Shown: positions 3,425 through 27,809 of the stretch, piece after piece | Layout of the letters: each line of letters begins with the position of its first letter | Numbering within the stretch: the first letter of the stretch is position 1 | Source: a virus | Taxonomy: Duplodnaviria > Heunggongvirae > Uroviricota > Caudoviricetes | IMG/VR virus record: IMGVR_UViG_3300045988_134250 | Direction: 5' to 3' (one strand) | Length of the DNA: 64,000 nt | The notes under the pieces: model-generated | Databases searched by the model: none | What the model was told of the DNA's origin: nothing | The model's input: the letters and a program-made list of their open reading frames with translations, nothing else | Translations under genes and position numbers: made by a program

Positions 3425-3430
3425 GTCTCA

Positions 3431-3475: not shown

Positions 3476-3483
3476 TGCATTTT

Positions 3484-14979: not shown

Positions 14980-15558
14980 CTAATTTATCAACTCAATCGC
15001 CATCTGATACAACGTCATTTCATCGGCATTGTGCCGCATGAAATCTGCTTTTCCGCCTATTTTTCCGTCAGCATGAACAGGGACCAGCCAGGGATATTGT
15101 TCTCTGACCTCGGCTGGCGCTGCGTACTGGTGGTGCCATTTACACAAAGGGAGGACATATTTATGCGCGTTCTCTGCCGTTCTCCCGAAGATATGGTGCA
15201 GGGATACCACTGGGCTATGTTGCCCGTGAATATGGCAGGCAATGCAGGGGAGAGCACCGATAGCGGTCTGTATCCGGCGTTCATCGGCTGTGAGTGATCT
15301 GCCTTTCAGGCCGCGTGACGTGCGTGTTTTTTTGGACGGAGCGGATACAGCTTTATCTTTTCTCCGCTGTTCATATTGCTTTGCTTTTTCAATTTTCTTT
15401 TGCCGATATTCAGGCGATGCGGCTTTTTCTCTCGCTCGCTGCTGCTGGCGTTGAGCTTGTTGAAGGCGCTTTGCCCTTTGTTCCTCTCGCCAGGCCGGGT
15501 CAGCCAATTTTTGCATGGCTTTTTGTCTCTGTTTCTCCCAATAACTCTGTTTCTGCAT
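14980..15558 (-). CDS. ref: Ref-like HNH nuclease with basic N-terminal domain
   Basis: 192 aa; K/R/Q-rich N-terminus, ADPAWREEQ, then Cys/His motif LPCIACHIHG...SLHHIFG...PLCKWHH, as in P1 Ref as recalled. Confidence 0.5.
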   Translation of the reverse strand: MQKQSYWEKQRQKAMQKLADPAWREEQRAKRLQQAQRQQQRAREKAASPEYRQKKIEKAKQYEQRRKDKAVSAPSKKTRTSRGLKGRSLTADERRIQTAIGALPCIACHIHGQHSPVVSLHHIFGRTAENAHKYVLPLCKWHHQYAAPAEVREQYPWLVPVHADGKIGGKADFMRHNADEMTLYQMAIELIN

Positions 15559-15626
15559 GATGGCAGTCTCTTACTTTTCAACGATTTTTCTATGATTGAT
15601 CAAAATGGTTAGATATTCAAAATTGA

Positions 15627-15636
15627 TTTTCTAACA
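15627..15636 (+). promoter_or_regulatory. TTTTCTAACA motif copy at head of the long rightward operon
   Basis: gattttctaacacaaaac followed by -10-like taatat and RBS ggagga. Confidence 0.45.
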
Positions 15637-15675
15637 CAAAACATTAATATCATTCCTGATAACTGTTTGGAGGAC

Positions 15676-15831
15676 ATGATGCTTATAGCTTTAAGTGCGA
15701 TCCACCAGCCATCTGTGAATGAGATTGGCCTGTTCTATGTGTTGTTTTTCGGGGCGTTGGCGCTACTTGAGCTTGGTATTGAGCTTTTCGCAGTGCTTAT
15801 GTTTTGCGTCACGATTCTGGGGAAATTTTGA
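15676..15831 (+). CDS. Small hydrophobic protein (51 aa), translationally coupled to next gene
   Basis: ATG 15676 after RBS tggaggac; MMLIALSAIHQPSVNEIGLFYVLFFGALALLELGIELFAVLMFCVTILGKF; stop TGA overlaps next ATG (TGATG). Confidence 0.4.
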   Translation: MMLIALSAIHQPSVNEIGLFYVLFFGALALLELGIELFAVLMFCVTILGKF

Positions 15832-16442
15832 TGGTGAAACGTGTTTTGAAAATTTACATCGCGGGGCCGATGACTGGTTATCCAGATTACAACCGTGCGG
15901 CGTTTAATGCGAAAGCGAGCGAGTTGATGGCTGAAGGGCATATCGTTCTGAATCCAGCTATGTTACCTGGTGGCCTTTGTCAGAGTGAATACATGGATAT
16001 TTGCCTGGCAATGGTGCGTTCTGCTGATGCGATCTACTTGCTCAATCGATGGGAAGAATCGGTTGGTGCTCGCGCAGAGCACGCGCTGGCTGAAAAGCTG
16101 GGGCTGACTGTAATTTATGAGTCACCAACCAACATTGAATGCCAGGTTGCTCCGCATATTTACCGGGAACTGGTCAATGCACTGCGTGATATCGCTGCTG
16201 TATATCACGGCACAGAACAGCTTCGTGAGCGTTTAGCCCATACCATTTCCTATTACCTGTCTTTATCTCATGAGCACAAGCTCCGCCAGAAGGTAATGAT
16301 CAAATTTATCATGAGGTTATCGAAATCCCTGGCAAACGCCGATCCAAAGAATCCATTACCGAAAGAGGCAATGAATTACCTGAAGTCCTGCAACGTTGTT
16401 TCTGAAGATGGCGTTCTTTTGGTTAGAAGGAGTTCTGCGTGA
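15831..16442 (+). CDS. DUF4406-like protein (nucleoside 2-deoxyribosyltransferase-like fold)
   Basis: Starts MVKRVLKIYIAGPMTGYPDYNRAAFNAKASEL, pattern typical of DUF4406 as recalled; track start 15804 is upstream non-ATG. Confidence 0.5.
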   Translation: MVKRVLKIYIAGPMTGYPDYNRAAFNAKASELMAEGHIVLNPAMLPGGLCQSEYMDICLAMVRSADAIYLLNRWEESVGARAEHALAEKLGLTVIYESPTNIECQVAPHIYRELVNALRDIAAVYHGTEQLRERLAHTISYYLSLSHEHKLRQKVMIKFIMRLSKSLANADPKNPLPKEAMNYLKSCNVVSEDGVLLVRRSSA

Positions 16443-16756
16443 GCTGGCGGGGATGGGGAAGGGCAGAAATCATGATACTCCGCCAGTGCGCCGGAACTAT
16501 GACGGTCGAGAGTATTGGGAAGCTGATCGGTCGTACCGGTGATGCCGTCAGGACTAAAGCGCGGGAGTTGGGGATCAGCATGATTCTGAAAGGAGACTTT
16601 CATCCGTCAGCCAAATTCCGGCAGAGCGATATAGAACTGGCGCGGCAGCTTCATCAGTGTGGTGTTCCCCGCCGTGAGATCGCGGAAAAACTCGAAATGC
16701 CCCTGGGCATGATTAATCAGTACGTTTATTTCGAAAGGAGAGTACATGAAGTCTGA
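16439..16756 (+). CDS. Small DNA-binding-like protein
   Basis: 105-aa ORF with two HTH-like segments (IGKLIGRTGDAVRTKARELG; CGVPRREIAEKLEM). Confidence 0.45.
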   Translation: MSWRGWGRAEIMILRQCAGTMTVESIGKLIGRTGDAVRTKARELGISMILKGDFHPSAKFRQSDIELARQLHQCGVPRREIAEKLEMPLGMINQYVYFERRVHEV

Positions 16757-17249
16757 AGGTTTAACGCCAGCACAACTGGCAGAGCGTAACGCTGAGTATG
16801 TAACGGAAATTTCCCGACTTGAGAAAGCGTGTGCTGCGCTGGCGGCGGAGAATGCGAGACTGAATGCGATATGTGAGGATCGCCGCACGTTCATTATGAA
16901 TGGCGTGCAGCTTGGCTTTATCAAGGTGCCAACAGTGGAAATAGATCCAGCTCTCGAAACAATTCGTCTCGCCCTATCACCACAAAAAACCACTCCTGCG
17001 ACCGACACTTTCCTGGATGAAGTGAAGACTGAAGCACGCAAGGAGGGCGCTTACTTTGTGGCGAACAGGATGCTGGCTGCTTGGGAAGCTGGTTTTATTG
17101 ATGATACTGCGAAGAACGCCGCGGATATTGCCCGGATGATTCTTACCTCTACTGAGTTTATGGCTAATGCGCGGGAAGGCGATTTTGACCGCTCATTCTC
17201 TGATGGCGTTCTCGAAGATATCGCCGAACAGCTTAGAAAAGGAAGGTAA
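16746..17249 (+). CDS. Coiled-coil protein, member of a paralogous family
   Basis: 167 aa; shares AALAAEN coiled-coil segment and C-terminal ...EGAYFVANRMLAAWEAGFIDD with 21017..21739. Confidence 0.5.
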   Translation: MKSEGLTPAQLAERNAEYVTEISRLEKACAALAAENARLNAICEDRRTFIMNGVQLGFIKVPTVEIDPALETIRLALSPQKTTPATDTFLDEVKTEARKEGAYFVANRMLAAWEAGFIDDTAKNAADIARMILTSTEFMANAREGDFDRSFSDGVLEDIAEQLRKGR

Positions 17250-17252
17250 ACA

Positions 17253-17501
17253 GTGAGTAATACCGCACGACTACAGCTTGGTTTTTCACCGCTATCAAAA
17301 ACCATCGTGTTGGCAAAAATGCGTGACTTAGGGGATGGAACAAAACGTCGTGTTGGCAATGATCGCGGTCGTGATGTAACCAACGAGGCCGCTCAACTCC
17401 TCTGGCATCTGGTCATGGCAGAAGGCGGTGAAATTAATTGGGAGCTGGATGATGGTTCTCGCATGGTATTGAAGGCAGAAAAGCAGGAACCACCACAGTG
17501 A
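17253..17501 (+). CDS. Hypothetical protein
   Basis: 82-aa ORF in tightly packed rightward array. Confidence 0.4.
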   Translation: MSNTARLQLGFSPLSKTIVLAKMRDLGDGTKRRVGNDRGRDVTNEAAQLLWHLVMAEGGEINWELDDGSRMVLKAEKQEPPQ

Positions 17502-17773
17502 ATATCGACACCACGATAACGCTCGATACGGCCCTAAATACCGGTCTGGCACTTCTTGGTTGGCTTTACATCATGTCCCGTACCTGGCGATGGCTGGGTT
17601 CCATTTTCCTAAAAGAGTGGAAAAAACGGCGCAAACAGGAACTACGCCAGAAGGCATTAGAAGCGTTCTATGACGCATTTGAACTTAGCCGCATTGAACC
17701 AGGCACAACAGCCAGAATAGCGACAAAAGGCGACCTGATGATAGTGATGTTCAGACAGGAGAAAACCAAATGA
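17498..17773 (+). CDS. Hypothetical protein with N-terminal hydrophobic segment
   Basis: 91-aa ORF, 4-nt overlaps on both sides. Confidence 0.4.
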   Translation: MNIDTTITLDTALNTGLALLGWLYIMSRTWRWLGSIFLKEWKKRRKQELRQKALEAFYDAFELSRIEPGTTARIATKGDLMIVMFRQEKTK

Positions 17774-17994
17774 CAGAACAGACGATGACAAATCGCGAAC
17801 TTGTTGATGCCGCGATTGAACTTGCTGGCGATTTTTATTCCATGATGGGGTACACGCATCGCCCAGGCTTCAAATATTGGGAGTCTCCGCACCCGCAAGA
17901 GCAACGGGTATTTCAAATGGCCTGCCGCGCTTTTGAAGTTATTCGCGGTTCTGATGTGATGGACGCGGTTGCTGATTTGGAGGATGAAGAGTGA
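17770..17994 (+). CDS. Hypothetical protein
   Basis: 74-aa ORF, 4-nt overlaps. Confidence 0.4.
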   Translation: MTEQTMTNRELVDAAIELAGDFYSMMGYTHRPGFKYWESPHPQEQRVFQMACRAFEVIRGSDVMDAVADLEDEE

Positions 17995-18302
17995 ACACAA
18001 TTAAAGAAATGCCGGTAGAACGTGATGAATATGGCTGCTGGACACATCCGGAGTATGAGAAGTTTTGCGCAGGTCGTGAATATATTTCCACTGAGGAATT
18101 TGACGCCTGGATGAAGGAAAATAATCTTCAGTGGACTATTCGCAGTATGGATGAAGATGATTTTGATCTGGACGCAGCTGGTCCCGATATTGCCGCCTGG
18201 GAACCGGAGCGACCAGAGGGTGAAGGCTGGTTTGTTGGCTCTATTCATGACACTGAAGATGGTCCGGTTTGTATCTGGCTGCGTGAGAAGGTTGCCGCAT
18301 GA
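17991..18302 (+). CDS. Hypothetical protein
   Basis: 103-aa acidic ORF, 4-nt overlaps. Confidence 0.4.
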
Positions 18303-18991
18303 CCCAGGCTCTGCATGAAGTGAATTTATATAGCCGTATTGATGGTTCTGGCTATAGAAACATATGGGTTGTTGGTGATCTGCATGGTTGCTACACCAGA
18401 CTGATGTCCGAACTCCATCGTGTGGATTTTGACCCGGCGCAGGATTTACTGATATCGGTTGGCGACCTTATCGATCGCGGTACTGAAAATGTCGAATGTC
18501 TGGAACTATTGCAGATGCCCTGGTTCAGGGCAGTAATGGGGAACCATGAGCGGTTGATGCTTGATGCGTTAAGTCCTGATGGCAACGTGAATAACTGGCT
18601 AATGAATGGCGGACAATGGTTCTTCATGCTGGACACTGATCAGGAAATATTAGCCAAGGCGCTGGTGGAGCTGGTAAAGCGTCTGCCATATATCATTGAG
18701 TTGAACACCGGGCATGAAACTATCGTTATAGCCCATGCCGACTATCCAGGTGGAGAGTACCAGTTCGGTAAGGATGTGTCGCTTTTTGATGTTGTCTGGT
18801 CGCGCAGTCGCGTCGGTGATTCGATAGATGGCATTGGTGGAGAAATCACAGGCGCAGATCGCTTTATCTTTGGGCACACACCGGTACGAAGACCAAAAGC
18901 ATACTGGAATCAGCACTACATAGACACGGGCGCGGTTTTTAGCGGAAATCTGACGCTAATGCAGGTGAAGGGAGGGCAGCTTAAAGTCTGA
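18299..18991 (+). CDS. ppp: Ser/Thr protein phosphatase (lambda PPase family)
   Basis: 230 aa; metallophosphatase motifs GDLHG, GDLIDRG, GNHE, and later GH; P1 encodes a homologous phosphatase. Confidence 0.75.
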
Positions 18992-19037
18992 TCAAATCAT
19001 TTACGCACTCAAAATTACGTTAGAACATTGATTTTAG

Positions 19038-19047
19038 TTTTCTAACA
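19038..19047 (+). promoter_or_regulatory. TTTTCTAACA motif copy
   Basis: gttttctaacatatt 43 bp upstream of ATG 19090; degenerate copy cgttagaaca at 19018-19027. Confidence 0.4.
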
Positions 19048-19089
19048 TATTATTTTACCGATCGGAACAAAACAGAGTCGGTATGCATT

Positions 19090-20085
19090 ATGAGTGCAAT
19101 AATCACCCCATATGTCGTAAATGAAACTGGTGTGGCTGTCTTTCCTGTAGATAAGCCCACCAGCAATTACATCGGCGCAGGACGCCGTTTTCTTATATCC
19201 CCATTGCCGCGTGAACAGGCTGAAAACACCCCTGATGGTGTCGTTGACCTGAATTATTCACTGGTTGCCAACCAGTCACTGGCACCCTTTTTTCAAAGTG
19301 AGCGCGTATTTAACGCGTTAGGTGGTGAGGATTCTCTCGTTCACTGGGTTAGCACCAACATTCACGATTGCCAGGTGCATGATAAGCGCGATTGCAGCCA
19401 CCAGCTAACCACCCATTTCTATAACGGTTCTGCCGTTCGCCTGTGCTGGAAGCATGATGCGGAATACATGATGAAGGGATACGGCAAGCTGGAAGACCAA
19501 CTGTCACTGAATCGCGCCAACTGGATTATGAACTGGGCTGCCAGCGAGTTAAAACTTCCGCCAGATCGCGATCTGAGCATGGTTGAACTCACCTTTTGGG
19601 CCATTCGCCGGAATCTTAAAGACGAACTGCCTGATGAAGCTGGTCGCATTGCATTTTGTCAGCCAAAAACTGAAATCCCTACCGGCACTCTGAAAGAGTC
19701 GGATATTACTTGGGAGCATAGTACCCGCGAGCTGGTGGATATTTCCGCAGAGCAGATCGTCAATCTGTCCGTCGATGAAGATTCTGGCCTCCTATATATG
19801 CGCCGTCCAAAAACCTTACTCGGAAAAAGCCCGGCTTATCTCCGGTTTGTGGTGTCTCGCCCGTGTGTAGGCTGCGGCGGCAAGGTTAATCACCCATTCA
19901 TGTACCGCGCCCGCTCGTTAAACGAACACGACCGCTGGACTGTTCCTCTTTGCGATGACTGCGCCAGAAGCGCAGAAAACGATGTCCGGGCATGGGAAAA
20001 AGCACATGGCATACGCCTTTACGTAGCCGCTAACCAGCTTTTCGACTTCGCCATTGAGCGCGGAGTGATCACGTTCAATAACTGA
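19090..20085 (+). CDS. Hypothetical protein with C-terminal Cys/His zinc-binding (HNH-like) motif
   Basis: 331 aa; C-terminal RPCVGCGGKVNHPF...HDRWTVPLCDDCARS. Confidence 0.45.
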   Translation: MSAIITPYVVNETGVAVFPVDKPTSNYIGAGRRFLISPLPREQAENTPDGVVDLNYSLVANQSLAPFFQSERVFNALGGEDSLVHWVSTNIHDCQVHDKRDCSHQLTTHFYNGSAVRLCWKHDAEYMMKGYGKLEDQLSLNRANWIMNWAASELKLPPDRDLSMVELTFWAIRRNLKDELPDEAGRIAFCQPKTEIPTGTLKESDITWEHSTRELVDISAEQIVNLSVDEDSGLLYMRRPKTLLGKSPAYLRFVVSRPCVGCGGKVNHPFMYRARSLNEHDRWTVPLCDDCARSAENDVRAWEKAHGIRLYVAANQLFDFAIERGVITFNN

Positions 20086-20098
20086 TGGGAGCAATGCA

Positions 20099-20392
20099 AT
20101 GAGTCAAGGTAATGGTGACGGAGCTGCAAAGTGCAGAATCTCCACTTGTTTGATTAATGACAAAAAAATAGAACCGTGCGCGGCGTTGGCACAATCTCTG
20201 GAGCAGGATGCTGAATACACGACGCGGAAAGGTCTGCTGAAATACAAAATCTATAACCATGAATTAATTCATTCACAAGACCTGATCATGCTGCGGTCTG
20301 GTGAATTTTCTAAATCGCCTATTCGAGTTTCATTTTGCCCATTCTGTGGTGAAAGTCTGAAAACGTGGGAAGCGGAGGCAACCAGTGAATAA
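20099..20392 (+). CDS. Hypothetical protein
   Basis: 97-aa ORF; CxxC...CxxC pattern (CRISTCL...CPFCG). Confidence 0.4.
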   Translation: MSQGNGDGAAKCRISTCLINDKKIEPCAALAQSLEQDAEYTTRKGLLKYKIYNHELIHSQDLIMLRSGEFSKSPIRVSFCPFCGESLKTWEAEATSE

Positions 20393-21029
20393 CCGCTTTT
20401 ACATGATGTGCTTGCGTGAAACTGTGGGTAATAACGCCTCATTCCATTGCCATAACGGCAATGGTTACAGTTCTGATATCGATCGCGCTCATATTTACAC
20501 GCTGGAAGAAGCCCAAAAAGCCTGGAATTGTGGGCGAGATATCGATCAGCCTGTTTGTGCCGATAGTGTGGATGCAATGGCTGTGTGGCACGTTGATTGC
20601 CAGTACATCCCTACAGAAAGCCTGATTGAGTCAGATTGCACTGAGTATGTGGCCTACAAAAAAGGTAGCTGGAACGGCAACGATGTTTACTGGCTTCAAC
20701 ACGGTGGATTGCCAACAGATGACTTCAGTAAAGCGACCATCTTTAGCTTCGCCAACAAAAACGAACCAGGAATAGTTTGGTTGCCATTTTCCATTGCTGA
20801 TGCAGCAAAGCGCCGGACGTTCAATATCAATAACTTTAACCGCAGAACAATGGTTCAGGGCGCAGGTTTGGTCATGCCTGACTGGTTGAAAGAGCAGAAC
20901 AGAAGAAAGAAGTCGCGAAGCGGGAAGGTGCGTTGGAATTGTCCGCATTGCGGAAAAATAACCTGGCAGTACAGCCCATATGATTTTGAAGGCTGTCGTG
21001 ATTACAACTGTGAAGGATGGCGAGAATGA
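20385..21029 (+). CDS. Hypothetical protein with C-terminal zinc-ribbon-like motif
   Basis: 214 aa; NCPHCGK...GCRDYNCEGW. Confidence 0.45.
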   Translation: MNNRFYMMCLRETVGNNASFHCHNGNGYSSDIDRAHIYTLEEAQKAWNCGRDIDQPVCADSVDAMAVWHVDCQYIPTESLIESDCTEYVAYKKGSWNGNDVYWLQHGGLPTDDFSKATIFSFANKNEPGIVWLPFSIADAAKRRTFNINNFNRRTMVQGAGLVMPDWLKEQNRRKKSRSGKVRWNCPHCGKITWQYSPYDFEGCRDYNCEGWRE

Positions 21030-21739
21030 CAATTGACTATCAGGTACTGCGTGAGGCGGCAGAAAAGGCAACACCAGACGAATGGGTCGCATTTATTTCG
21101 ACGGATACTGGTACTTATGCGGTGCACACGCCCGGTGATGAACGATGTGAAGACGTTATCAAATGGACCGGCTTTGATGGACAGAAAAATGCAGAGAACA
21201 ACGCTCGTTATGTTGCCGCGTTCAACCCAAAGGTTGCACTGGAGCTTCTTGGTGAAATTAAGCGCCTGGAGGACACAAATATTGATGCTATGTGTCGAAT
21301 TGCAGAGCTTGAGACTAATCTCGCGGCGCTGGCGGCGGAGAATGAACTGGCTCGTAAGGCAGTTCAGGCATTCTGCGATGTTGTTGGCGACAACACCGAG
21401 GTTATCGCTGAGGAGGTTGGGCGAGATGGCGTTCTGGTTATTTTGGAGGCCATGAAGGCAACAGGAAATATGCCAGCCACCGATGCTTTTCTGGCTGAAA
21501 TTCGTGCGGAAGCACGCAACGAGGGAGTTAACTATACCGCCAGCCGTCTTGCTGCTGCGTTCAATCACGGATTTATCAATAAGTCTTTGCGTGAAGTTTT
21601 CGACGTTACACGCATGATTTTGTCAGCGAAAGAAGAGTTGGCTAATGAAGCGCATCCGATTGATGGCCTGTCTGGTGAATATGCGGAGAAATCCCTTGAA
21701 GAATGGGCGGAACAGATTCGCAAAGGAGCTGACAAGTGA
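21017..21739 (+). CDS. Coiled-coil protein, paralogous family member
   Basis: 240 aa; N-terminal MTIDYQVLREAAEKATPDEW parallels 22675 gene; AALAAEN segment shared with 16746 and 22143 genes. Confidence 0.5.
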   Translation: MARMTIDYQVLREAAEKATPDEWVAFISTDTGTYAVHTPGDERCEDVIKWTGFDGQKNAENNARYVAAFNPKVALELLGEIKRLEDTNIDAMCRIAELETNLAALAAENELARKAVQAFCDVVGDNTEVIAEEVGRDGVLVILEAMKATGNMPATDAFLAEIRAEARNEGVNYTASRLAAAFNHGFINKSLREVFDVTRMILSAKEELANEAHPIDGLSGEYAEKSLEEWAEQIRKGADK

Positions 21740-22146
21740 AGAAGATGATTTTTATCGCGGCATTGTTGGTGAATATCCAACAAGTGCATGCTTCAGCAGC
21801 TATTGTAGCCTCTACCGCCGCGACTACGGCTGCTGTAGCTGCTGCGAACTCTGCGAATATCGCAAACCAACAGGCACAGCGTGCTGCTAATGCATCAGCC
21901 AGCGTTCACTCAATCACCATTAAGAGCAGTAAGCAAAATCTGGGATTCATAACGTGCGGCACGCGTTCTAATGAAGCTGTAGGTTCACTTGGATGTACGG
22001 TATATGGGGGTAGTGAGAATAGAGAAATTCCATGGAAAACGTGGCCCGGATACGTTCTTGGCTCGAAGCTCCCGGCCAGTTATGAAGTAAACGCCGTATC
22101 GTTTGATCACTATAACGGCGTGGCAACGGTCTATTTTGCATATTGA
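21736..22146 (+). CDS. Secreted protein of unknown function
   Basis: 136 aa; signal peptide MKKMIFIAALLVNIQQVHA. Confidence 0.5.
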   Translation: MKKMIFIAALLVNIQQVHASAAIVASTAATTAAVAAANSANIANQQAQRAANASASVHSITIKSSKQNLGFITCGTRSNEAVGSLGCTVYGGSENREIPWKTWPGYVLGSKLPASYEVNAVSFDHYNGVATVYFAY

Positions 22147-22688
22147 GGCTCCGCATGAAATTCTCCAAATTTTCTGAGTTGGTGAATCGTATTTTGTTGA
22201 ATCGTATTTTGTCCAACAACCACAGCCATCGTCGCGATATGGATGTAACGATCGTTGTTCATTCGCCTGGCAGCATTGGTTCAACACCCTCAGTTGAGGT
22301 TCAGTCAATTCACGCTGGTTTTGATTGGGATTCCGGGAAAGTGCTGATTTTCCCAGCACAGCCACTGACCACTCTAACACCAGAACAGATTACTGATATT
22401 ACTGATAGTGTGCGCAAAGGTCAGTCCTGGCACGCATATCAGGAATACAAGAAGCATAAAGAGCAGTTGGAAAAATTATCGATTGAACTTGATACCGCAA
22501 AACAGCGCATTGCAGAGCTGGAGAGCAATCGCGCGGCGCTGGCGGCGGAGCATGGTATTCAGATTGCAATAAATGAACTGCTTGCTCTGGCCCCGCGTCT
22601 GGATAAACGAGCGGTGGATGCACTCTCTGTGGCTGTGGAGCACCTGTGTAAACTGATTAAGAAGGAGGCAGTCAGTGAGCAAAATTAA
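22143..22688 (+). CDS. Coiled-coil protein, paralogous family member
   Basis: 181 aa; RIAELESNRAALAAEH segment. Confidence 0.45.
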   Translation: MRLRMKFSKFSELVNRILLNRILSNNHSHRRDMDVTIVVHSPGSIGSTPSVEVQSIHAGFDWDSGKVLIFPAQPLTTLTPEQITDITDSVRKGQSWHAYQEYKKHKEQLEKLSIELDTAKQRIAELESNRAALAAEHGIQIAINELLALAPRLDKRAVDALSVAVEHLCKLIKKEAVSEQN

Positions 22689-23313
22689 TTACCAGGCACT
22701 GCGTGAGGCGGCAGAGAAAGCAACGTGGGGAGACTGGGACTCATATAAACCACACCGTGGCGCACGTGGTTATAAGGTCCGACTAAGTGGTCAGGCCATT
22801 GCGCAACACGTTCTGAAAAACAACGCTGAATTTATTGCTGCCTTTAATCCAAAGGTTGCTTTGGCATTACTGGATGAACTGGAAAGAAACCAGCAATACA
22901 TCAAATCTCGCGACCAGGAGAACGAGGATATTGCGCTTACGGTAGGGAAGCTGCTAATCGAAAACGGCCGGCTTGTTGCCGATACGCTACGCCACTTAGC
23001 TGATAACGAAATCGACTCTGATTATTTTGCTATCACCTCAACGAATGAGAACGGTACTGAAATTGATCATGAGATGGCTATTACCGATTACGCACTGCAA
23101 GCTGCCGGAACTGTAGACGAATTGGTTGCGGCGTTGGAATCCGCAGAGAAGCGCATTGCAGAACTGGAAGCACGGGAAATATCGCTCCCAGAACGTAGCA
23201 GCATGCTTCATCGAACAGATTTTCACGAGGATTACCAAACGGTAATGGCATACAAAGTTTCTGAAGTCATCGATGCAATCCGCGCTACTGGCATTCGCAT
23301 CAAAGGAGAGTGA
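22675..23313 (+). CDS. Hypothetical protein, paralogous family member
   Basis: 212 aa; N-terminal MSKINYQALREAAEKATWGDW. Confidence 0.45.
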   Translation: MSKINYQALREAAEKATWGDWDSYKPHRGARGYKVRLSGQAIAQHVLKNNAEFIAAFNPKVALALLDELERNQQYIKSRDQENEDIALTVGKLLIENGRLVADTLRHLADNEIDSDYFAITSTNENGTEIDHEMAITDYALQAAGTVDELVAALESAEKRIAELEAREISLPERSSMLHRTDFHEDYQTVMAYKVSEVIDAIRATGIRIKGE

Positions 23314-23314
23314 G

Positions 23315-23725
23315 ATGAACGCTATAACCAAAGAACGTATCAAATTATTCATTAAAAATCCGCTTGATAACGGACTTACTCGTGGCGAACAAATGGAACT
23401 GGCACGAATTGCTCTGGCATCGCTGGAAGCAGAGGCAGTTATGTTCTGTATATCAGGACAAAATGTAGATTCAGAAGAACATGTATCAACCAGCAAAGCG
23501 GTTGTTGATGCCTGGGTTGAAGAATGGAATCAGGTTGACGGAAGTCCTGGCGAACCACTGTACAAAACTATGCCACTCTACTATCACGCTGCCTTGCCAG
23601 CGCCGGTAGTGCCGGATGAAATGTATTGGCAGGATGCGCCAGTTGAAGGCAGCAGCAAAGCGGCTGCATACGCTACAGGCTGGAACGCCTGCCGCGCCGC
23701 TATGCTTCATGGGAAAGGAGAGTGA
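23315..23725 (+). CDS. Hypothetical protein, N-terminal paralog of 24001 gene
   Basis: ATG 23315 with RBS aaaggagag (track gave 23273); MNAITKERIKLFIKNPLDNGLTRGEQMELARIALASLEA. Confidence 0.5.
   Translation: MNAITKERIKLFIKNPLDNGLTRGEQMELARIALASLEAEAVMFCISGQNVDSEEHVSTSKAVVDAWVEEWNQVDGSPGEPLYKTMPLYYHAALPAPVVPDEMYWQDAPVEGSSKAAAYATGWNACRAAMLHGKGE
23327..23433 (+). repeat. ~105-bp direct repeat, copy A
   Basis: accaaagaacgtat-aaattattcattaaaaatccgcttga...ctggcatcgctggaagcaga, about 90% identical to 24013-24119. Confidence 0.7.
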
Positions 23726-23726
23726 T

Positions 23727-23990
23727 ATGGCAACTTTAACAAAAAAAGAACGGGCATGGTTGAACGAATTACAGGACGTTCTTGATCGCTGCCCATCACC
23801 GAAAAAAATTGGTTTTTACACCATTGGCGATAAAAGCATTTACCTGTATGACCTGCGCCGCATGGATGAAATCATGGAGACTCTTGATAATCGTTCGTCG
23901 ATGGATTGGTGTGTTGCTGTTCATGATATGAATGCAGGGTTTGATGAAAAGATTTTGTTCCCCTCATCAGTTGAAAGCACTGCGGGTTAA
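23727..23990 (+). CDS. Hypothetical protein
   Basis: ATG 23727 with RBS ggaaaggag (track 23616 start is inside previous gene); MATLTKKERAWLNELQ... Confidence 0.45.
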   Translation: MATLTKKERAWLNELQDVLDRCPSPKKIGFYTIGDKSIYLYDLRRMDEIMETLDNRSSMDWCVAVHDMNAGFDEKILFPSSVESTAG

Positions 23991-24000
23991 GGAGTAACAC

Positions 24001-25521
24001 ATGACCACTATTACCAAAGAACGTATTGAATTGTTCATTAAAAATCCGCTTGAAAACGGGCTTACCCGTGGTGAACAAATGGAACTGGCACGGATTGCGC
24101 TGGCATCGCTGGAAGCAGATCCAGTTAAACGAGTTAACTCAGATCAGATGCGCCGAGTCTGCTTAGAAGCTAATCGCCATTTAGATAAATATGACGCGAT
24201 GGCGAAAGAGGTAAATAAGTTGCTTGGACGCATCGCCCCGCCAGCGCCGGTAGTGCCGGAAGAAGCAACTCCGGAAAACGTAGAAATGCTCTCTGGCTAT
24301 GTTTCCACGTACAAATTAACCGATAGCGAGCGCGATATTGCTGCCGAAATATGGAACGCCTGCCGCACCGCCATGCTTCAGTCCGGAAACTTTCGGGAAA
24401 GCAAGAATTCGTCAACCAATAATTTTCGGGAAATCGCGGAAACGTCAACCAACTATCCGGTAATTCCTAGTGAGGTGTTGTCAGCAATCCTGAAGTTTGC
24501 CAGAGTTCGTGCCGATTTCGATGATTTTGACGGTGACAGGCGAGGTATCGGTGATTGTCTGGATGAGGCCGAGCAAGAGCTTATCGTTACCATTAACAAA
24601 TATGCCAGTCAGTTGGCAGCAGAACCGATAGCGACTAATGACGTTCGAGAGCAAACAGCCGTTCCGCCAATACAGGCTGATGTCGCGCAAGCAATTGAAA
24701 ATCTCAAGCAGAAGTTAGTGGAATGCAATCGCTATAACTACTGCGCAGATGCAGTTAAAGGCGTAGAGGATGCCAGCCGCGTCTTGGCACTCCAAAATCA
24801 AAATATGTCAGCACCGGTAACGCCGGAGGCCATTGAAAACGCAATTGAATATATCCGCAGTATCGCTTTTCACATCGATGAAGACGATTACCACGGCAAG
24901 CATATTGCGTATTTCATGCGACAAGCATTGGCCTGGCTGGAAGGGCATTCATGCAGCGACGACAGGCTGGGTAAGGCCGACAATCAACCCGCATCTGGTA
25001 ACCAGTCTGCCGAATCCAATCGCGGTAATGAGTGGACCGGCAATCCTGATATTGATAACGCCATCATCATGCTCGACCGCATAGATACGGCGGAAAGTTG
25101 CGATGATGACCGTATTGAGGCCGTTAAGGCTGTGTTGCGTAGACTGGCAGGCAACTATCCGGATATTCCGGATAGTTCGGTGCCAGCGCCAGGAAAGGGC
25201 GTCACCGGTGAACGTATCCGCATTAAGCCGCATGTTTATCGCGAACTGGTTAACCGTCTCCACGATACAGCGATCAAGTGTGCTGGCACCCAGCAATTAC
25301 GAGAAAGAATTAGCCGTGTTTTGGGCGACGTTATTACACCAGATCATCATAAACAAGCCGAGAAAAGTGGCCTGGAAAGGTGTCGCCTTGAGGCGGCATT
25401 AAACATTAAGCCGGGGCATACGCTTGGCATTATTGATGCACTATTGGTTCATAAGATGGCCAGGGCTTTATTGCCGCTGGTGGCTGAAAAGCATGAGGTG
25501 GACCATGCCAACGAAAGCTGA
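24001..25521 (+). CDS. Hypothetical protein (506 aa), N-terminal paralog of 23315 gene
   Basis: MTTITKERIELFIKNPLENGLTRGEQMELARIALASLEA; also shares PAPVVP and WNACR.AML segments. Confidence 0.5.
   Translation: MTTITKERIELFIKNPLENGLTRGEQMELARIALASLEADPVKRVNSDQMRRVCLEANRHLDKYDAMAKEVNKLLGRIAPPAPVVPEEATPENVEMLSGYVSTYKLTDSERDIAAEIWNACRTAMLQSGNFRESKNSSTNNFREIAETSTNYPVIPSEVLSAILKFARVRADFDDFDGDRRGIGDCLDEAEQELIVTINKYASQLAAEPIATNDVREQTAVPPIQADVAQAIENLKQKLVECNRYNYCADAVKGVEDASRVLALQNQNMSAPVTPEAIENAIEYIRSIAFHIDEDDYHGKHIAYFMRQALAWLEGHSCSDDRLGKADNQPASGNQSAESNRGNEWTGNPDIDNAIIMLDRIDTAESCDDDRIEAVKAVLRRLAGNYPDIPDSSVPAPGKGVTGERIRIKPHVYRELVNRLHDTAIKCAGTQQLRERISRVLGDVITPDHHKQAEKSGLERCRLEAALNIKPGHTLGIIDALLVHKMARALLPLVAEKHEVDHANES
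24013..24119 (+). repeat. ~105-bp direct repeat, copy B
   Basis: Near-identical to 23327-23433. Confidence 0.7.
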
Positions 25522-25789
25522 ATTACAGGTGCGCGTAGATGAGCTTGAAAAAGAGAACGCGAGCCTCAAAAAAATGCTGTCGCGGGCGGAAAGGGAATTA
25601 TCAGGCAAATTATTGCCAGAAGAACTGCCACCAGCAGATATACCTGATCGAGTGTCCTGGTGGATGAAGTATTTCCGTGCACCGTGGGAGGCGTTTTGGT
25701 GCTACGACCATCGCAGATGGTGTGATGAGCTTGATAGCAGTTTCCCCTATTTTGCAGAAGGGAACTCTTGCCCTGAATGTAGGCGTTAA
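25505..25789 (+). CDS. Small Cys-rich protein, paralog of next gene
   Basis: ATG 25505 (track 25424); WEAFWCYDHRRWCDELDSSFPYFAEGNSCPECRR. Confidence 0.45.
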   Translation: MPTKAELQVRVDELEKENASLKKMLSRAERELSGKLLPEELPPADIPDRVSWWMKYFRAPWEAFWCYDHRRWCDELDSSFPYFAEGNSCPECRR

Positions 25790-26094
25790 TGATGACCGGC
25801 GAGCTTTATTTTAAAATGGCACGGGAGCGGCGTGTGCATCTGGATCGGATATTTCATCTCCAGAAGAGAGTAGAAGAACTGGAACGTCGTCTGAACTGTT
25901 ATCCTGTTGATATGGTGTCTGCAATACCGCCGATTCCAATAGAAATGCAGATCCGCCTATGGATGGAAGAATATGGAATGCCGTGGGAGATATTTTTCTG
26001 CTTCGACCATAAACAGTGGGTAGATGAGCTGGATAATAGTTTCCCATATTTCACAGAGAACACATGCCCAGTATGCAGGAAGAACGGAATATGA
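25789..26094 (+). CDS. Small Cys-rich protein, paralog of previous gene
   Basis: 101 aa; WEIFFCFDHKQWVDELDNSFPYFTENTCPVCRK; TAATG start overlap. Confidence 0.45.
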   Translation: MMTGELYFKMARERRVHLDRIFHLQKRVEELERRLNCYPVDMVSAIPPIPIEMQIRLWMEEYGMPWEIFFCFDHKQWVDELDNSFPYFTENTCPVCRKNGI

Positions 26095-26615
26095 CAAAAT
26101 TTGGAAAGCTGGAAGCTCATTTGCTAACTCGCAACTACCGCCATGATATACACCCATATAGACAGTGGATCGATGAAAGCGAAGGAGTAGTTACATTCCC
26201 TCTCTACAGGTTTGATGGGATGTTGGCTGGGTATCAGACATATAGACCAGGTGCACCTAAGCAGCATAGCAATCCGAAGATGGCCCGGTATTTCACGCGA
26301 TCACACGGCAGACAGTTACTTTGGGGAACCTATCTTCCTTTAAAAGATGGCCCAATATGGATAACTGAGTCTATTTTTAAGAGCGCAGCTGTACACAACG
26401 CGGGCGGCAATTCGTGGGCGCTGTTAGGTTCAACTTTCTCCGCAGGATTACGCCGTCAACTTGCGATGCTGCCGTATGACTTTCGCGTAATAGGTGACAA
26501 TGATGCGGCTGGTGAATCACTTGTGAAGTCTTTCGGAAAAGGTTTTGTGGCCCCGGATCTTGACGAGCTACAACCACATGAAGTGTCTCATTTGATTTTT
26601 AGCCATAGCCAATAA
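26091..26615 (+). CDS. Hypothetical protein
   Basis: ATG 26091 with RBS aggaag (track 26064); contains VIGDNDAAG (Toprim-like DxD?). Confidence 0.4.
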   Translation: MTKFGKLEAHLLTRNYRHDIHPYRQWIDESEGVVTFPLYRFDGMLAGYQTYRPGAPKQHSNPKMARYFTRSHGRQLLWGTYLPLKDGPIWITESIFKSAAVHNAGGNSWALLGSTFSAGLRRQLAMLPYDFRVIGDNDAAGESLVKSFGKGFVAPDLDELQPHEVSHLIFSHSQ

Positions 26616-26823
26616 GCATCTCTCCCCTTTGAGGTCACAATTAGTGGCCTTAAACAATGTGTTTTCTACCTCGATTTAGCCTTTATTATCGTTTTGCATT
26701 TCTCTAATCCGGGCAACGAGGTTACGCTGATTCGTTGGTGATGAATAGTAGCAAAGCGCACAAAATCATCTGCGGTGGTTGATGTACGTAACGCGTTTGC
26801 ACCAAATGTGTCTCTTTAATGTA

Positions 26824-26843
26824 TACTGTATAAATGAACAGTA
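26824..26843 (+). promoter_or_regulatory. LexA box (SOS operator)
   Basis: tactgtataaatgaacagta matches CTGT-N8-ACAG; 20 bp upstream of humD ATG. Confidence 0.75.
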
Positions 26844-26862
26844 TTATTGAGGTGAAAACGCT

Positions 26863-27252
26863 ATGGGCTTCCCTTCTCCTGCGGCGGACTATGTTGAAAG
26901 CCGAATTTCTCTTGATCAGCAACTAATCAGGCATCCATCAGCGACATACTTCATGCGGGCGGCAGACAGCCATCACCGTGAGGGAATATTGCAGGGTGCT
27001 TTGCTGGTGGTTGATTCTTCGCTTACTCCAGTTGATGGTTCGCTGCTTGTGTGCGCTATGGAGGGAGAATATCGCGTAAAAAGATACCGGAAGTATCCGC
27101 GCCAGCACCTGGAGGATTTAAGCACCGGGAAGAAAGAGGCGTTACCAGTAGATGACGATGGTTACACGGGTAGTAATGCTGTTTTTGGTGTGATCACCCA
27201 CATTATCAATGACGCCAGGGGCGGTGAATTTGATGATAGTCCTGCTATATGA
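26863..27252 (+). CDS. humD: UmuD'-like protein (pre-processed UmuD homolog)
   Basis: 129 aa; begins MGFPSPAADYVESRISLDQQLIRHPSATYF, aligning with E. coli UmuD from Gly25 (the RecA-mediated cleavage product). Confidence 0.75.
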   Translation: MGFPSPAADYVESRISLDQQLIRHPSATYFMRAADSHHREGILQGALLVVDSSLTPVDGSLLVCAMEGEYRVKRYRKYPRQHLEDLSTGKKEALPVDDDGYTGSNAVFGVITHIINDARGGEFDDSPAI

Positions 27253-27386
27253 TTTGTTTTCAGAGAAACCATAGAGAGGCATGACTGGATCTATATCGCC
27301 CTGGCCATTTAAATGATTCCTCCCATTAGACGCGGTTACTCACTTGAAGATAAGATGAGGTTATAATTCTCTTTTTAGGTACGCGA

Positions 27387-27809
27387 ATGAGTTCGTCTGC
27401 TTTTGTCACTGTTGTCACTGGAGTAAGCGTTTTTGTCCTAGGTCGACTCATCATCAAGGGGGTTGAGTCTTACATTTCATTCAAGGAACAGTTGGGGGAA
27501 ATATCGCATCTGTTATTGTCTAACCAAGCAAAGCTATCGAATCCCCGCTCTGACTTAAAACAAGAAATCATCCATGATTTGAAAGATGCGGCAGCACAGT
27601 TACGGGTGAAGTACGAACTATTACCTTTCTATATCAAAATGTTACACATCGGTTTTCGCCTTGTTCCATCAGAAACTGAAATTCGTAAAGCGGCGCAAGA
27701 ATTGAATCTGATAGCCTCGATACATGATGGTAAAACCGGAGAGCTGCCATATGAGCACATAGCCAAGATTGGATTACTGCTCAGAATTCCAACCACTTAT
27801 TCTGCTTAA
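27387..27809 (+). CDS. Hypothetical protein with N-terminal TM helix
   Basis: 140 aa; AFVTVVTGVSVFVLGRLII hydrophobic segment; lies between humD and phd. Confidence 0.45.
   Translation: MSSSAFVTVVTGVSVFVLGRLIIKGVESYISFKEQLGEISHLLLSNQAKLSNPRSDLKQEIIHDLKDAAAQLRVKYELLPFYIKMLHIGFRLVPSETEIRKAAQELNLIASIHDGKTGELPYEHIAKIGLLLRIPTTYSA

What the first reader, a model, noticed from the sequence alone, without database searches (positions are those of the whole stretch)
16746..26094. Expanded paralogous gene families sharing near-identical DNA segments
Within the rightward operon several genes are clearly related. Family A: 16746, 21017, 22143 and 22675 share an AALAAEN/H coiled-coil segment encoded by the same ~20-bp DNA (16833-16854, 21322-21344, 22531-22554), and 21017/22675 share N-termini (xxYQxLREAAEKAT). 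Family B: 23315 and 24001 share a ~105-bp 90%-identical 5' segment (23327-23433 vs 24013-24119) and further patches (PAPVVP, WNACR.AML). Family C: 25505 and 25789 are Cys-rich paralogs (WE.F.C.DH..W.DELD.SFPYF). Such mosaic paralogs suggest a recombination-driven diversification cassette of unknown function.
Basis: seen in the sequence. Interest (0 to 1): 0.45.

Follow-up and report, generated by a model that had tools for sequence, protein, structure and literature searches.

The report
Phage accessory genes shuffled at in-frame linkers
In the early accessory operon of a P1/D6-like phage-plasmid, the apparent gene families are mosaic proteins whose parts are swapped between genes and between phages by recombination at short in-frame DNA linkers; this is a clear, detailed example of a known kind of phage evolution.

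Summary
All the shared DNA and protein segments are at the stated coordinates and are significant; the largest is 127 bp at 89% identity (E 4e-42).

The window is a D6/P1-like phage-plasmid. The region is its rightward early accessory operon, between ref and humD/phd-doc.
- Family A corresponds to P22 EaE and to lambda Ea22 / P22 EaD.
- Family B carries the N-terminal module of P22 EaA, and B2 ends in a P1 PmgU-like module.
- Family C is a small zinc-knuckle family restricted to P1-like elements.

Families A and B are mosaics, not simple duplicates. The 18-bp ALAAEN/H motif occurs exactly three times in the window (A1, A2, A3). In related finished plasmids, heads and tails are exchanged exactly at this motif. 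The 1.2 kb between copies 2 and 3 sits inside A1 in some relatives. It runs from the middle of one ORF to the middle of another.

An unbiased sample gave 32 head types, 40 tail types and 70 combinations.

There is no sign of a DGR, shufflon or integron, so ordinary homologous recombination at conserved in-frame linkers is the best explanation. Protein function is unproven. One protein with the same layout, HK446 Oad2, inhibits the OLD defence.

Family C is an old tandem duplication.

The parts
14980..15558 (-). ref (Ref-family recombination enhancement nuclease); context, divergently placed just upstream of the operon
   Evidence: Annotated as such in the 99.8%-identical plasmid p95_MLI121 and in phage D6.
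15831..16442 (+). First gene of the operon: a DUF4406 domain plus a C-terminal extension built from modules shared with B2/PmgU (YRELVN motif at 16161-16196)
   Evidence: Pfam PF14359, E 9e-34. Residues 114-163 match B2 407-455 at 44%, E 3e-9.
16746..17249 (+). A1: EaE-like protein with the layout head | ALAAEN | middle | PATDTFL | C-terminal domain | LRKG
   Evidence: 55% identity to P22 EaE over 152 aa, E 7e-44. PHROGs 14548/614.
16836..16853 (+). ALAAEN linker, copy 1 (GCGCTGGCGGCGGAGAAT); an 'empty' cassette site in this window
   Evidence: In L156/L179/L194/L228 the cassette is inserted here.
16995..17015 (+). PATDTFL linker of A1 (second in-frame junction)
   Evidence: Self-BLASTN 16995-17055 vs 21473-21533.
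21026..21739 (+). A2: Ead/Ea22-like N-terminal domain + coiled coil | ALAAEN | middle | PATDAFL | EaE-type C-terminal domain
   Evidence: Pfam PF13935, 73.6 bits (cut-off 27). Full-length match to PHROG 368. More than 6268 related 90%-identity clusters.
21326..21343 (+). ALAAEN linker, copy 2; left boundary of the cassette
21344..22535 (+). 1.2-kb cassette running from mid-ORF to mid-ORF: A2 middle + A2 C-terminal domain + stop, the whole gene 21736-22146, then the start and head of A3
   Evidence: The same block lies inside A1 in L156, L179, L194 and L228. It is absent from site 2 in L316, where A2 head joins A3 tail in one ORF. Junction counts in finished plasmids.
21473..21493 (+). PATDAFL linker of A2
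   Evidence: CCAGCCACCGAYGCTTTYCTG is conserved in 109 distinct ORF sequences. At least four unrelated 'middles' lie between ALAAEN and PATDAFL in proteins whose flanks are over 90% identical.
21736..22146 (+). Passenger gene of the cassette: 136 aa with a signal-peptide-like N-terminus; no family assigned
   Evidence: ORF. No Pfam or NCBIfam hit. Travels with the cassette.
22155..22688 (+). A3: head (PHROG 6026) | ALAAEH | short 44-aa tail
   Evidence: PHROG 6026, E 1e-54. The head is joined to the A1 tail in relatives. PGAP labels the head a pseudogene fragment that ends at the motif.
22536..22553 (+). ALAAEH linker, copy 3; right boundary of the cassette
22675..23313 (+). A4: lambda Ea22 / P22 EaD homologue, ending in KGE
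   Evidence: Pfam PF13935, 99.1 bits. 50% identity to lambda Ea22 over 96 alignment columns, E 1e-21. 85 bp at 92% shared with lambda ea22.
23315..23725 (+). B1: EaA-type N-terminal module (23315-23441) plus a short tail carrying the PAPVVP and WNACRAAML patches
   Evidence: 60% identity to P22 EaA over 65 aa, E 7e-20. The module always sits at the N-terminus of proteins of 55-411 aa, with at least 17 tail architectures.
23727..23990 (+). Small gene (PHROG 1714) lying between the two 127-bp direct repeats
   Evidence: PHROG 1714, E 2e-50. Present or absent independently of B1 in relatives.
24001..25521 (+). B2: EaA-type N-terminal module (24001-24127), then inner modules joined at PAPVVP (24241), WNACRTAML (24352) and NYPxIP (24451, 25153), then a PmgU-like C-terminal module
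   Evidence: C-terminus is 94% identical to P1 PmgU and 95% to D6 orf104 over 290 aa. Inner modules a-d are present or absent combinatorially in about 65 P1-like contigs, while the C-terminal module stays constant.
25505..25789 (+). C1: N-terminal helix plus a C-terminal CHCC knuckle
   Evidence: 33 clusters, from P1-like elements. Invariant C66, H69, C89, C92. AF2 pLDDT 83; no PDB fold match.
25789..26094 (+). C2: old tandem paralogue of C1; it co-varies with the downstream toprim gene as a single indel
   Evidence: The chimera P0007 (C1 head + C2 tail) is.
26091..26615 (+). Last gene of the operon, a toprim-domain protein (context)
   Evidence: Named a toprim domain protein in the RefSeq/PLSDB annotation of near-identical plasmids; Pfam found no family for it here. 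Terminator-like hairpin at 26628-26654.

Best explanation
The region is the early accessory operon of a D6/P1-like phage-plasmid. It is populated by relatives of the lambdoid 'ea' genes (P22 eaE, lambda ea22 / P22 eaD, P22 eaA) and by P1 pmgU-like sequence.

The proteins of families A and B are chains of interchangeable modules. Modules are joined in frame by short linkers that are conserved at the nucleotide level:
- ALAAEN/H (an 18-mer);
- PATDAFLAE;
- the 127-bp EaA N-terminal module;
- PAPVVP, WNACRxAML and NYPxxP.

Homologous recombination at these linkers exchanges heads, middles and tails. It can act between co-resident temperate phages and plasmids, or between copies on one replicon. 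It can also move a block that starts in one ORF and ends in another. Inserting such a block turns one gene into two intact chimeric genes. The window carries this block between motif copies 2 and 3, and has an unoccupied site at copy 1.

Shown here: the joints, the switch of parent at the joints, the combinatorial head-tail matrix, and the alternative cassette positions in finished plasmids.

Inferred:
- The enzymes. The identical cores of 19-25 bp are close to the minimal pairing length reported for Red-beta (23-27 bp) and below that of RecA (31-34 bp). That favours Rad52-like recombinases of co-resident lambdoid prophages. RecA helped by the adjacent ref gene is an alternative.
- The selective reason. 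These are probably fast-evolving early proteins that bind host or defence proteins. HK446 Oad2, which has the same layout, is a direct inhibitor of the OLD defence, and a 54%-identical homologue is inactive.
For: Identity of the element and the operon.

The shared segments are significant.

Low synonymous divergence in the shared patches, next to unalignable sequence: 28 of 36 identical residues in B1/B2 residues 1-45 use the same codon.

The ALAAEN motif occurs exactly three times in the window.

Parent switching inside the 18-25 bp core:
- L156 position 2372 = A1 head + A2 tail;
- L156 position 3567 = A3 head + A1 tail;
- L316 position 6924 = A2 head + A3 tail.

Gene order g16439-[A1h|A2m-A2c]-g21736-[A3h|A1m-A1c]-g17253 in L156, L179, L194 and L228, against the window's order.

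Junction-spanning 180-bp queries in finished plasmids, counting records with at least 80% of the query covered:
- A1h|A1m: 30
- A1h|A2m: 10
- A3h|A1m: 13
- A2h|A2m: 15
- A2h|A3t: 6

Head-by-tail matrices:
- 13 x 19 with 41 combinations in loci retrieved by protein.
- 32 x 40 with 70 combinations in an unbiased exact-18-mer sample.

Linkers are conserved at synonymous positions. The majority base at the third position of the six ALAAEN codons has frequency 0.98, 0.93, 0.62, 0.94, 1.0 and 0.99 across 88 distinct ORF sequences.

Family B:
- More than 253 loci carry the N-terminal module, with at least 17 tail architectures, including DUF551 and a dATP/dGTP pyrophosphohydrolase.
- Inner modules of B2 are present or absent combinatorially.
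- The 16 sites that distinguish the two repeat copies form patchwork hybrids in relatives.

Homology-block boundaries across 318 loci cluster at the linkers.

Homology to EaE, Ea22, EaD, EaA and PmgU.

Published mechanism, including minimal pairing lengths: PMC3945230. Published Ea22 mosaicism: PMC10834534. Oad2: bioRxiv 10.64898/2026.07.10.737580. Its layout.
Against: - No recombination was observed directly. Everything is inferred from comparing genomes.
- The identical core (18-25 bp) is at or below the efficient pairing length of the known recombinases. Some joints could therefore come from illegitimate events kept by selection.
- The window itself encodes no recognised Rad52-like annealing protein in the part examined. 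Only ref and rdgC were seen.
- RefSeq's pipeline marks the A3 head, the B1 N-module and part of B2 as incomplete pseudogenes in the near-identical plasmid. Some mosaic ORFs may be debris rather than working genes.
- The functional link to Oad2 is weak. Only the 16-19 residue linker aligns with A1 or A2.
- The loci retrieved by protein query are a biased sample. The 18-mer sample was capped at 120 hits.
Confidence: 0.78

Rival explanations
1. Illegitimate (non-homologous) recombination makes random joints. Selection keeps only in-frame chimeras joined at a structurally tolerant point of the coiled coil. On this view the linker is conserved because the protein needs it, not because it guides recombination.
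For: About 70% of recent mosaics between temperate phages show no flanking trace of homology (PMC3945230). The identical cores are short, at 18-25 bp. The A2 model places a long helix across the motif, but its confidence is too low to rely on.
Against: Every joint examined falls inside the same stretch of identical nucleotides. Synonymous positions of the linker are nearly invariant across 88-110 distinct ORF sequences with unrelated flanks. GAG and AAT are used in 99-100% of cases. Protein-level selection alone does not predict that.
Confidence: 0.1
2. Ordinary gene duplication within the plasmid followed by divergence. The shared patches would be the slowly evolving remnants of once-identical paralogues.
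For: Family C fits this. C1 and C2 are 42% identical along their whole length, and both copies are conserved as a pair in elements only about 57% identical.
Against: In families A and B, sequence next to the shared patches cannot be aligned at all, while the patches keep identical codons. Relatives are about 100% identical to different window genes on the two sides of a linker. The same modules occur at 92-97% nucleotide identity in lambdoid and P22-like phages.
Confidence: 0.04
3. A dedicated, programmed diversification device such as a diversity-generating retroelement, an invertase shufflon or an integron-like cassette system.
For: There are repeats flanking a movable cassette, and the gene content is highly variable.
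Against: All significant repeats are direct, not inverted. The 14 mismatches between the 127-bp repeats are of every type, not confined to adenines. No reverse transcriptase, integrase or invertase was found among the operon proteins scanned. The variants are fixed differences between genomes, not variants within one sequence.
Confidence: 0.03
4. Several of the mosaic ORFs (A3, B1, perhaps A1) are non-functional leftovers of recombination. On this view the 'families' are partly gene debris in a region under weak selection.
For: PGAP marks the A3 head, the B1 N-module and part of B2 as incomplete pseudogenes in the 99.8%-identical plasmid. A 55-aa truncated EaA-type ORF is the commonest form in lambdoid contigs.
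Against: All window ORFs are intact and tightly packed, with overlapping stop and start codons and Shine-Dalgarno sequences. B1 recurs unchanged in other contigs. The A3 tail is kept in frame in two different head contexts. The PGAP flags arise from comparison with longer reference chimeras, which is what mosaicism would produce.
Confidence: 0.05

Closest known systems
Lambda Ea22 / P22 EaD (Pfam PF13935 Ead_Ea22), described as mosaic proteins with a short N-terminal region, a coiled coil and a variable C-terminal domain (PMC10834534, PMC7093339)
   Same: A2 and A4 pass the Pfam threshold. A4 shares 50% identity with lambda Ea22 and an 85-bp stretch at 92% nucleotide identity, and it has the same KGE ending. 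The layout is also the same: a conserved N-terminus and coiled coil with unrelated C-terminal domains.
   Different: The element here is a P1/D6-like phage-plasmid rather than a lambdoid phage, and it carries several copies. The exact in-frame joints (ALAAEN, PATDAFLAE) and a cassette spanning two ORFs are defined here. I did not find them described in the papers I read.
P22 EaE and HK446 Oad2, an inhibitor of the P2 OLD defence (bioRxiv 10.64898/2026.07.10.737580)
   Same: A1 is 55% identical to EaE over 152 aa. The A2 C-terminal domain is EaE-type. Oad2 has the same layout: head | LAAEN | middle | TPATDAFLAEVRA | C-terminal domain | LRKG. The Oad2 head belongs to the commonest head cluster in the sample.
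   Different: Oad2 aligns with A1 and A2 only over the 16-19 residue linker. Its middle and C-terminal modules are different, so its activity cannot be transferred.
P22 EaA, P7 Upf89.5, P1 PmgU and D6 orf104
   Same: The B1 and B2 N-terminal module is 60-73% identical to EaA at protein level and 92% at DNA level over 134 bp. The B2 C-terminus is 94-97% identical to PmgU and Upf89.5.
   Different: The combination of inner modules differs from every one of these. P1 lacks the EaA-type head.
Mosaicism of temperate phages through relaxed homologous recombination by Rad52-like recombinases (De Paepe et al. 2014, PMC3945230)
   Same: Short, high-identity blocks are exchanged between temperate phages, with crossovers in short conserved stretches. 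Small gene fragments are exchanged more often than whole modules.
   Different: The joints here lie inside ORFs and preserve the reading frame. Exchange crosses the lambda-like / P1-like divide, which that study did not see.
C-terminal module swapping in polymorphic toxins (CdiA at VENN, Rhs at PxxxxDPxGL); recalled from my own knowledge, not tested
   Same: In both, a conserved peptide/DNA motif marks the boundary where variable C-terminal modules, together with a downstream gene, are replaced by recombination, leaving displaced 'orphan' pieces.
   Different: There is no evidence of toxin or immunity function here. The cassette also brings a new N-terminal head, so both resulting ORFs are complete.

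Membership tests
Ead/Ea22-like proteins (PF13935) | Match to the Pfam model above its gathering score | tested here: met
   A2 scores 73.6 bits and A4 99.1 bits against a cut-off of 27. A1 and A3 give no Pfam hit, so they are not members by this test.
Ead/Ea22-like proteins (PF13935) | N-terminal region + central coiled coil + unrelated C-terminal domains (mosaic layout) | tested here: met
   A2 and A4 share only their N-terminal 79 aa. Their C-terminal parts match different PHROGs. Alignment A3 shows variable middles between conserved flanks. The coiled coil itself rests only on a low-confidence helix prediction.
Ead/Ea22-like proteins (PF13935) | Pro-lysogenic effect and tetramer formation | not testable with these tools
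   These properties are known only from experiments on lambda and Stx phage proteins (PMC7093339, PMC10834534).
P22 EaE / Oad2-like proteins | Sequence similarity to EaE over most of the length | tested here: met
   A1 is 55% identical to EaE over 152 aa, E 7e-44. The A2 C-terminal 85 aa are 42% identical, E 5e-19.
P22 EaE / Oad2-like proteins | Similarity to Oad2 itself beyond the linker | tested here: not met
   Only TPATDAFLAEVRA aligns, with E 5e-4 for A1 and 1e-5 for A2.
P22 EaE / Oad2-like proteins | Inhibition of the OLD nuclease | not testable with these tools
   Needs an expression assay.
P22 EaA-like proteins | EaA N-terminal module at the start of the protein | tested here: met
   B2 is 73% identical over 56 aa and B1 60% over 65 aa, E about 1e-20. 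The DNA is 92% identical over 134 bp. The rest of EaA does not align.
Diversity-generating retroelement | A reverse transcriptase, and a template/variable repeat pair differing at adenines | tested here: not met
   Mismatches between the repeats are of all types. No RT domain was found in the operon proteins scanned.
Invertase shufflon (Cin/Rci type) | Inverted crossover sites and an adjacent site-specific recombinase | tested here: not met
   All significant repeats in 15000-27500 are direct. No recombinase gene was found in the operon.
Polymorphic-toxin-type C-terminal swapping | A conserved junction motif with variable downstream modules | tested here: met
Polymorphic-toxin-type C-terminal swapping | A toxin domain with a cognate immunity gene | tested here: inconclusive
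   No toxin or immunity family was detected. The passenger gene 21736-22146 is uncharacterised.

The most novel reading that the evidence does not exclude
The in-frame linkers (ALAAEN, PATDAFLAE, the EaA N-module, NYPxTPDGW and others) may be recombination handles maintained by selection. Together they would form one combinatorial library of early anti-defence or host-binding proteins, shared by lambdoid phages and P1-like phage-plasmids. This would be an anti-immunity counterpart of polymorphic toxin systems. New specificities, such as Oad2-type inhibitors of OLD-family nucleases, would arise by swapping heads, middles and tails, and by inserting cassettes that run from mid-ORF to mid-ORF.
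Probability: 0.2. Interest if true: 0.7.

Novelty: new variant of a known kind. Interest (0 to 1): 0.45.

Why it matters
The result gives base-pair resolution of how one of the most variable and least understood parts of temperate enterobacterial phages is rebuilt.
- Defined 18-130 bp in-frame linkers let whole protein modules be exchanged.
- A block spanning two genes can also move, without breaking any reading frame.
- The exchange crosses two very different virus types: integrating lambdoid phages and P1-like plasmid prophages.

If the modules are specificity determinants of anti-defence proteins, as Oad2 suggests, the linkers supply a map for predicting and engineering new inhibitor variants.

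There are two practical points.
- Homology-based annotation mislabels such chimeras as pseudogenes.
- The 'K/RGE' ending noted for Ea22 proteins is explained by the ribosome-binding site of the next gene.

Tried and rejected
- PDB sequence searches with A2, A4 and B2 found nothing significant.
- NCBIfam gave no hit for any of the ten proteins tried.
- The AlphaFold model of C1 was confident (pLDDT 83), but Foldseek against the PDB found no match (best E 5.7).
- The AlphaFold model of A2, built from a 12-sequence mosaic alignment, had pLDDT 42. It was not used for fold search.
- I first took C1 to be P1 PmgV because the ORFs are similar in size. BLASTP showed no similarity, so I dropped that.
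- My first reading of three tandem C copies in some contigs was an artefact of my hit merging. ORF listing showed one or two copies.
- The promoter and terminator scan was uninformative for promoters: 11 sites found against 16 expected by chance.
- The Stx2c phage record fetched for context had no annotation.
- The D6-like Salmonella population paper did not discuss this region.
- The ALAAEN core GCTGGCGG differs from Chi (GCTGGTGG) by one base. I did not pursue this, because the sequence is also simply common codon usage. True Chi sites in the region are not at the joints.

Full report
**What the window is.** Megablast of 16000-27000 finds phage D6 (46% covered at 94.8% identity), P7, SJ46 and P1. 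It also finds 1163 plasmid records, nearly all non-mobilisable E. coli or Salmonella plasmids of about 90-97 kb. The best is p95_MLI121, at 99.8% identity over 93% of the query. The annotated neighbours are ref upstream and humD, phd and doc downstream. These place the finding in the rightward early accessory operon of a D6/P1-like phage-plasmid, the counterpart of the P1 pmgT-pmgV/upf region and of the P7 operon controlled by the operator Op(hea). The genes are tightly packed. Stop and start codons overlap, and Shine-Dalgarno sequences lie inside the preceding gene.

**Check of the observation.**
- A1-A2 share a C-terminal domain (E 4e-18).
- A2-A4 share an N-terminal domain (E 6e-13).
- A2-A3 share a coiled-coil segment (49 bp at 88%).
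- B1-B2 share 127 bp at 89% (E 4e-42), plus the PAPVVP and WNACR patches at 93-96%.
- C1-C2 are 42% identical along their length (E 2e-21).

The 22-bp ALAAEN match is marginal inside the window (E 0.016 and 0.19), but evidence from other genomes shows it is real. Two corrections apply. Family A is a chain of different shared modules, not four full-length paralogues. One shared module was missed: B2 residues 407-455 match the C-terminal extension of the DUF4406 protein (E 3e-9).

Within the shared patches the codons themselves are mostly identical. In the first 45 residues of B1 and B2, 28 of 36 identical residues use the same codon. The sequence next to the patches cannot be aligned. That pattern points to mosaic ancestry rather than slow divergence.

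**What the genes are.**
- A2 and A4 pass the Pfam Ead_Ea22 model.
- A4 is 50% identical to lambda Ea22. It shares 85 bp at 92% with lambda ea22, and its last 25 bp or so are the same.
- A1 is 55% identical to P22 EaE over 152 residues. The A2 C-terminal domain is also EaE-type.
- B1 and B2 begin with the N-terminal module of P22 EaA (60-73% protein identity, 92% DNA identity over 134 bp).
- B2 ends with a module 94-97% identical to P1 PmgU and P7 Upf89.5. It is 95% identical to D6 orf104 over 290 residues.

Each protein hits many PHROGs on different stretches, which is the signature of modular proteins. The Ea22-like family is very large, with more than 6268 clusters at 90% identity.

Family C is small: 33 clusters, found on contigs the size of P1-like elements. 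It has invariant C, H, C, C residues. A confident model shows a 30-residue helix plus a small knuckle, with no match among solved structures.

**The decisive result for family A.** The 18-mer GCGCTGGCGGCGGAG(A/C)AT, which encodes ALAAEN/H, occurs exactly three times in the window, at 16836 (A1), 21326 (A2) and 22536 (A3). Related contigs and plasmids carry other arrangements.
- L155 and L156 have a gene with the A1 head joined to the A2 tail.
- L156, L179, L194 and L228 have a gene with the A3 head joined to the A1 tail.
- L316, the finished plasmid pKOr024_2, has a single gene with the A2 head joined to the A3 tail.

Nucleotide alignments show these relatives switching from about 100% identity with one window gene to about 100% identity with another, inside the 18-25 bp core.

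The gene order in L156-type elements is g16439-[A1 head|A2 middle and C-domain]-g21736-[A3 head|A1 middle and C-domain]-g17253. So the 1.2-kb block lying between motif copies 2 and 3 in the window (21344-22535) is inserted in those elements at motif copy 1. This block starts in the middle of one ORF, contains one whole gene, and ends in the middle of another. Its insertion converts one intact gene into two intact chimeric genes.

Each junction type is found in finished plasmids: A1h|A1m in 30, A1h|A2m in 10, A3h|A1m in 13, A2h|A2m in 15 and A2h|A3t in 6. Assembly error is therefore not the explanation.

**How general it is.** I split ORFs at the motif and clustered the two halves.
- The protein-retrieved loci gave 13 head clusters and 19 tail clusters in 41 combinations.
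- An unbiased scan of viral contigs for the exact 18-mer was capped at 120 hits. It gave 108 complete in-frame ORFs and 95 unique proteins, in 32 head clusters, 40 tail clusters and 70 combinations.
- In that scan one head was paired with 16 tail types and one tail with 12 heads.
- 60 of the 95 tails contain a second linker, PATDAFLAE.

An alignment of close A2 relatives shows at least four unrelated 'middles' between the two linkers, while both flanks stay over 90% identical.

The linkers are conserved at synonymous positions across ORFs with unrelated flanks. For ALAAEN the majority base at the six third-codon positions has frequency 0.98, 0.93, 0.62, 0.94, 1.0 and 0.99. PATDAFL, WNACRAAML and PVTPDGW show similar uniformity. 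Boundaries of homology blocks across 318 loci cluster at the linkers and at gene junctions.

**Family B.**
- The 42-residue EaA-type module is always at the protein N-terminus.
- It is followed by tails that give proteins of 55 to 411 residues (506 in the window), in at least 17 architectures.
- These include DUF551, a dATP/dGTP pyrophosphohydrolase plus DUF551, and pieces of B2.
- In about 65 P1-like contigs the C-terminal module of B2 and the adjacent C1 are nearly constant, while inner modules a-d are present or absent in many combinations.
- The 16 sites that distinguish the two 127-bp repeats of the window appear as patchwork hybrids in relatives, with 32 patterns. This indicates crossovers or gene conversion inside the module.

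**Family C.** C1 is conserved in P1-like elements. C2 and the toprim gene come and go together as one indel. A C1-like plus C2-like pair exists in elements only about 57% identical, so the duplication is old. One database protein is a C1 head joined to a C2 tail at the shared PWE segment. Unequal crossing-over therefore does occur, but this family does not show the linker-based shuffling of A and B.

**Mechanism.**
- All significant repeats are direct.
- Mismatches between repeats are of all types.
- No reverse transcriptase, invertase or integrase was found among the operon proteins scanned.

A programmed device is therefore unlikely. The pattern fits the published model in which temperate phages exchange short blocks by relaxed homologous recombination. 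In that model Rad52-like recombinases work on short, diverged homologies. Reported minimal pairing lengths are 23-27 bp for Red-beta and 31-34 bp for RecA (PMC3945230).

In lambda and P22 the ea genes lie immediately downstream of the phage recombination genes. Here they lie next to ref. Which enzyme acts is an inference.

That study found no recent mosaics between the lambda-like and the P1-P2-Mu groups. This window shares many 92-97% identical patches with Stx, lambda and P22-like phages.

**Function.** Function remains unproven.
- Lambda and Stx Ea22 favour lysogeny and form tetramers. Their mosaic organisation is published (PMC7093339, PMC10834534).
- A 2026 preprint identifies HK446 gp27 (Oad2) as a direct inhibitor of the P2 OLD nuclease. 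It describes the protein as related to P22 EaE and sometimes fused to EaD/Ea22, and reports that a 54%-identical homologue is inactive.
- Oad2 has the same layout as A1 and A2, and its head is the commonest head in my sample. Against A1 and A2, however, only the PATDAFLAE linker aligns.

My working hypothesis, marked as inference, is that these are early proteins that bind host or defence proteins, and that shuffling changes their specificity.

A caution: RefSeq's pipeline labels the A3 head (ending exactly at the motif), the B1 N-module and part of B2 as incomplete pseudogenes in the near-identical plasmid. This may only reflect comparison with longer chimeras, but some of these ORFs could be debris.

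**Verdict.** The phenomenon belongs to a known kind, namely mosaic ea genes and phage mosaicism by homologous recombination. New here are the precise codon-conserved in-frame linkers, the cassette running from mid-ORF to mid-ORF, and the exchange between P1-like and lambdoid elements.

Noticed in passing
whole window (e.g. + strand 408, 5689, 18661, 19731, 25476; - strand 2548, 19157, 25628 ...): There are 48 Chi sites (GCTGGTGG) in 64 kb: 16 on the + strand and 32 on the - strand. About 2 would be expected by chance. From memory, P1 is reported to be unusually Chi-rich. I did not analyse the orientation bias.
   Followed up: partly
window 15629, 19040, 41890, 42046, 43295, 44338, 54240 (+); 3439, 14971, 32236, 33646, 38079, 55439 (-): The element ATTTTCTAACA(T/C)A recurs mostly ahead of operons, including the two intergenic regions of this operon (upstream of 15831 and of 19090). 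It is a candidate C1-type operator or late-promoter box of D6-like phages.
   Followed up: no
window 23296-23317 and 23708-23729; L321 (lambda) about 2905-2932: The 'K/R-G-E' C-terminus reported for all Ea22 proteins (PMC7093339) is encoded by AAAGGAGAGTGA. That is the Shine-Dalgarno sequence for the next gene followed by the stop codon. The 3' end of lambda ea22 is identical to that of A4 over about 25 bp, but lambda has lost the downstream ATG.
   Followed up: partly
window 16128-16442: The DUF4406 (nucleoside deoxyribosyltransferase-like) protein carries a C-terminal extension made of two modules found elsewhere. One is in B2/PmgU (44%, E 3e-9). By eye, the other resembles the C-terminus of the EaA-type protein of L058.
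   Followed up: partly
L323 (NZ_CP117014.1) 1190-1588, 2467-2592, 2575-2859, 3153-3614: The RefSeq annotation calls the mosaic ORFs 'incomplete; missing C-terminus' pseudogenes. The fragments end exactly at the linkers (A3 head of 133 aa, EaA N-module of 126 bp). This looks like a systematic annotation artefact of mosaic genes.
   Followed up: partly
window 18299-18991: The ppp metallophosphoesterase gene is present in the window but absent from the 99.8%-identical plasmid p95_MLI121 and from pB2C_96. It therefore behaves as a clean indel.
   Followed up: no
window 25505-25789; proteins P0002, P0008, P0010: The C1 family is named 'antitoxin PHD' in several NCBI records, but Pfam shows no Phd/YefM match. 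The name is probably a mislabel. Protein P0007 is a C1 head joined to a C2 tail.
   Followed up: partly
window 20374-24130 versus Stx, lambda and P22-like phages: There are many patches of 92-97% nucleotide identity with lambdoid and P22-like phages. A 2014 survey found no recent mosaics between the lambda-like and the P1-P2-Mu groups (PMC3945230).
   Followed up: partly
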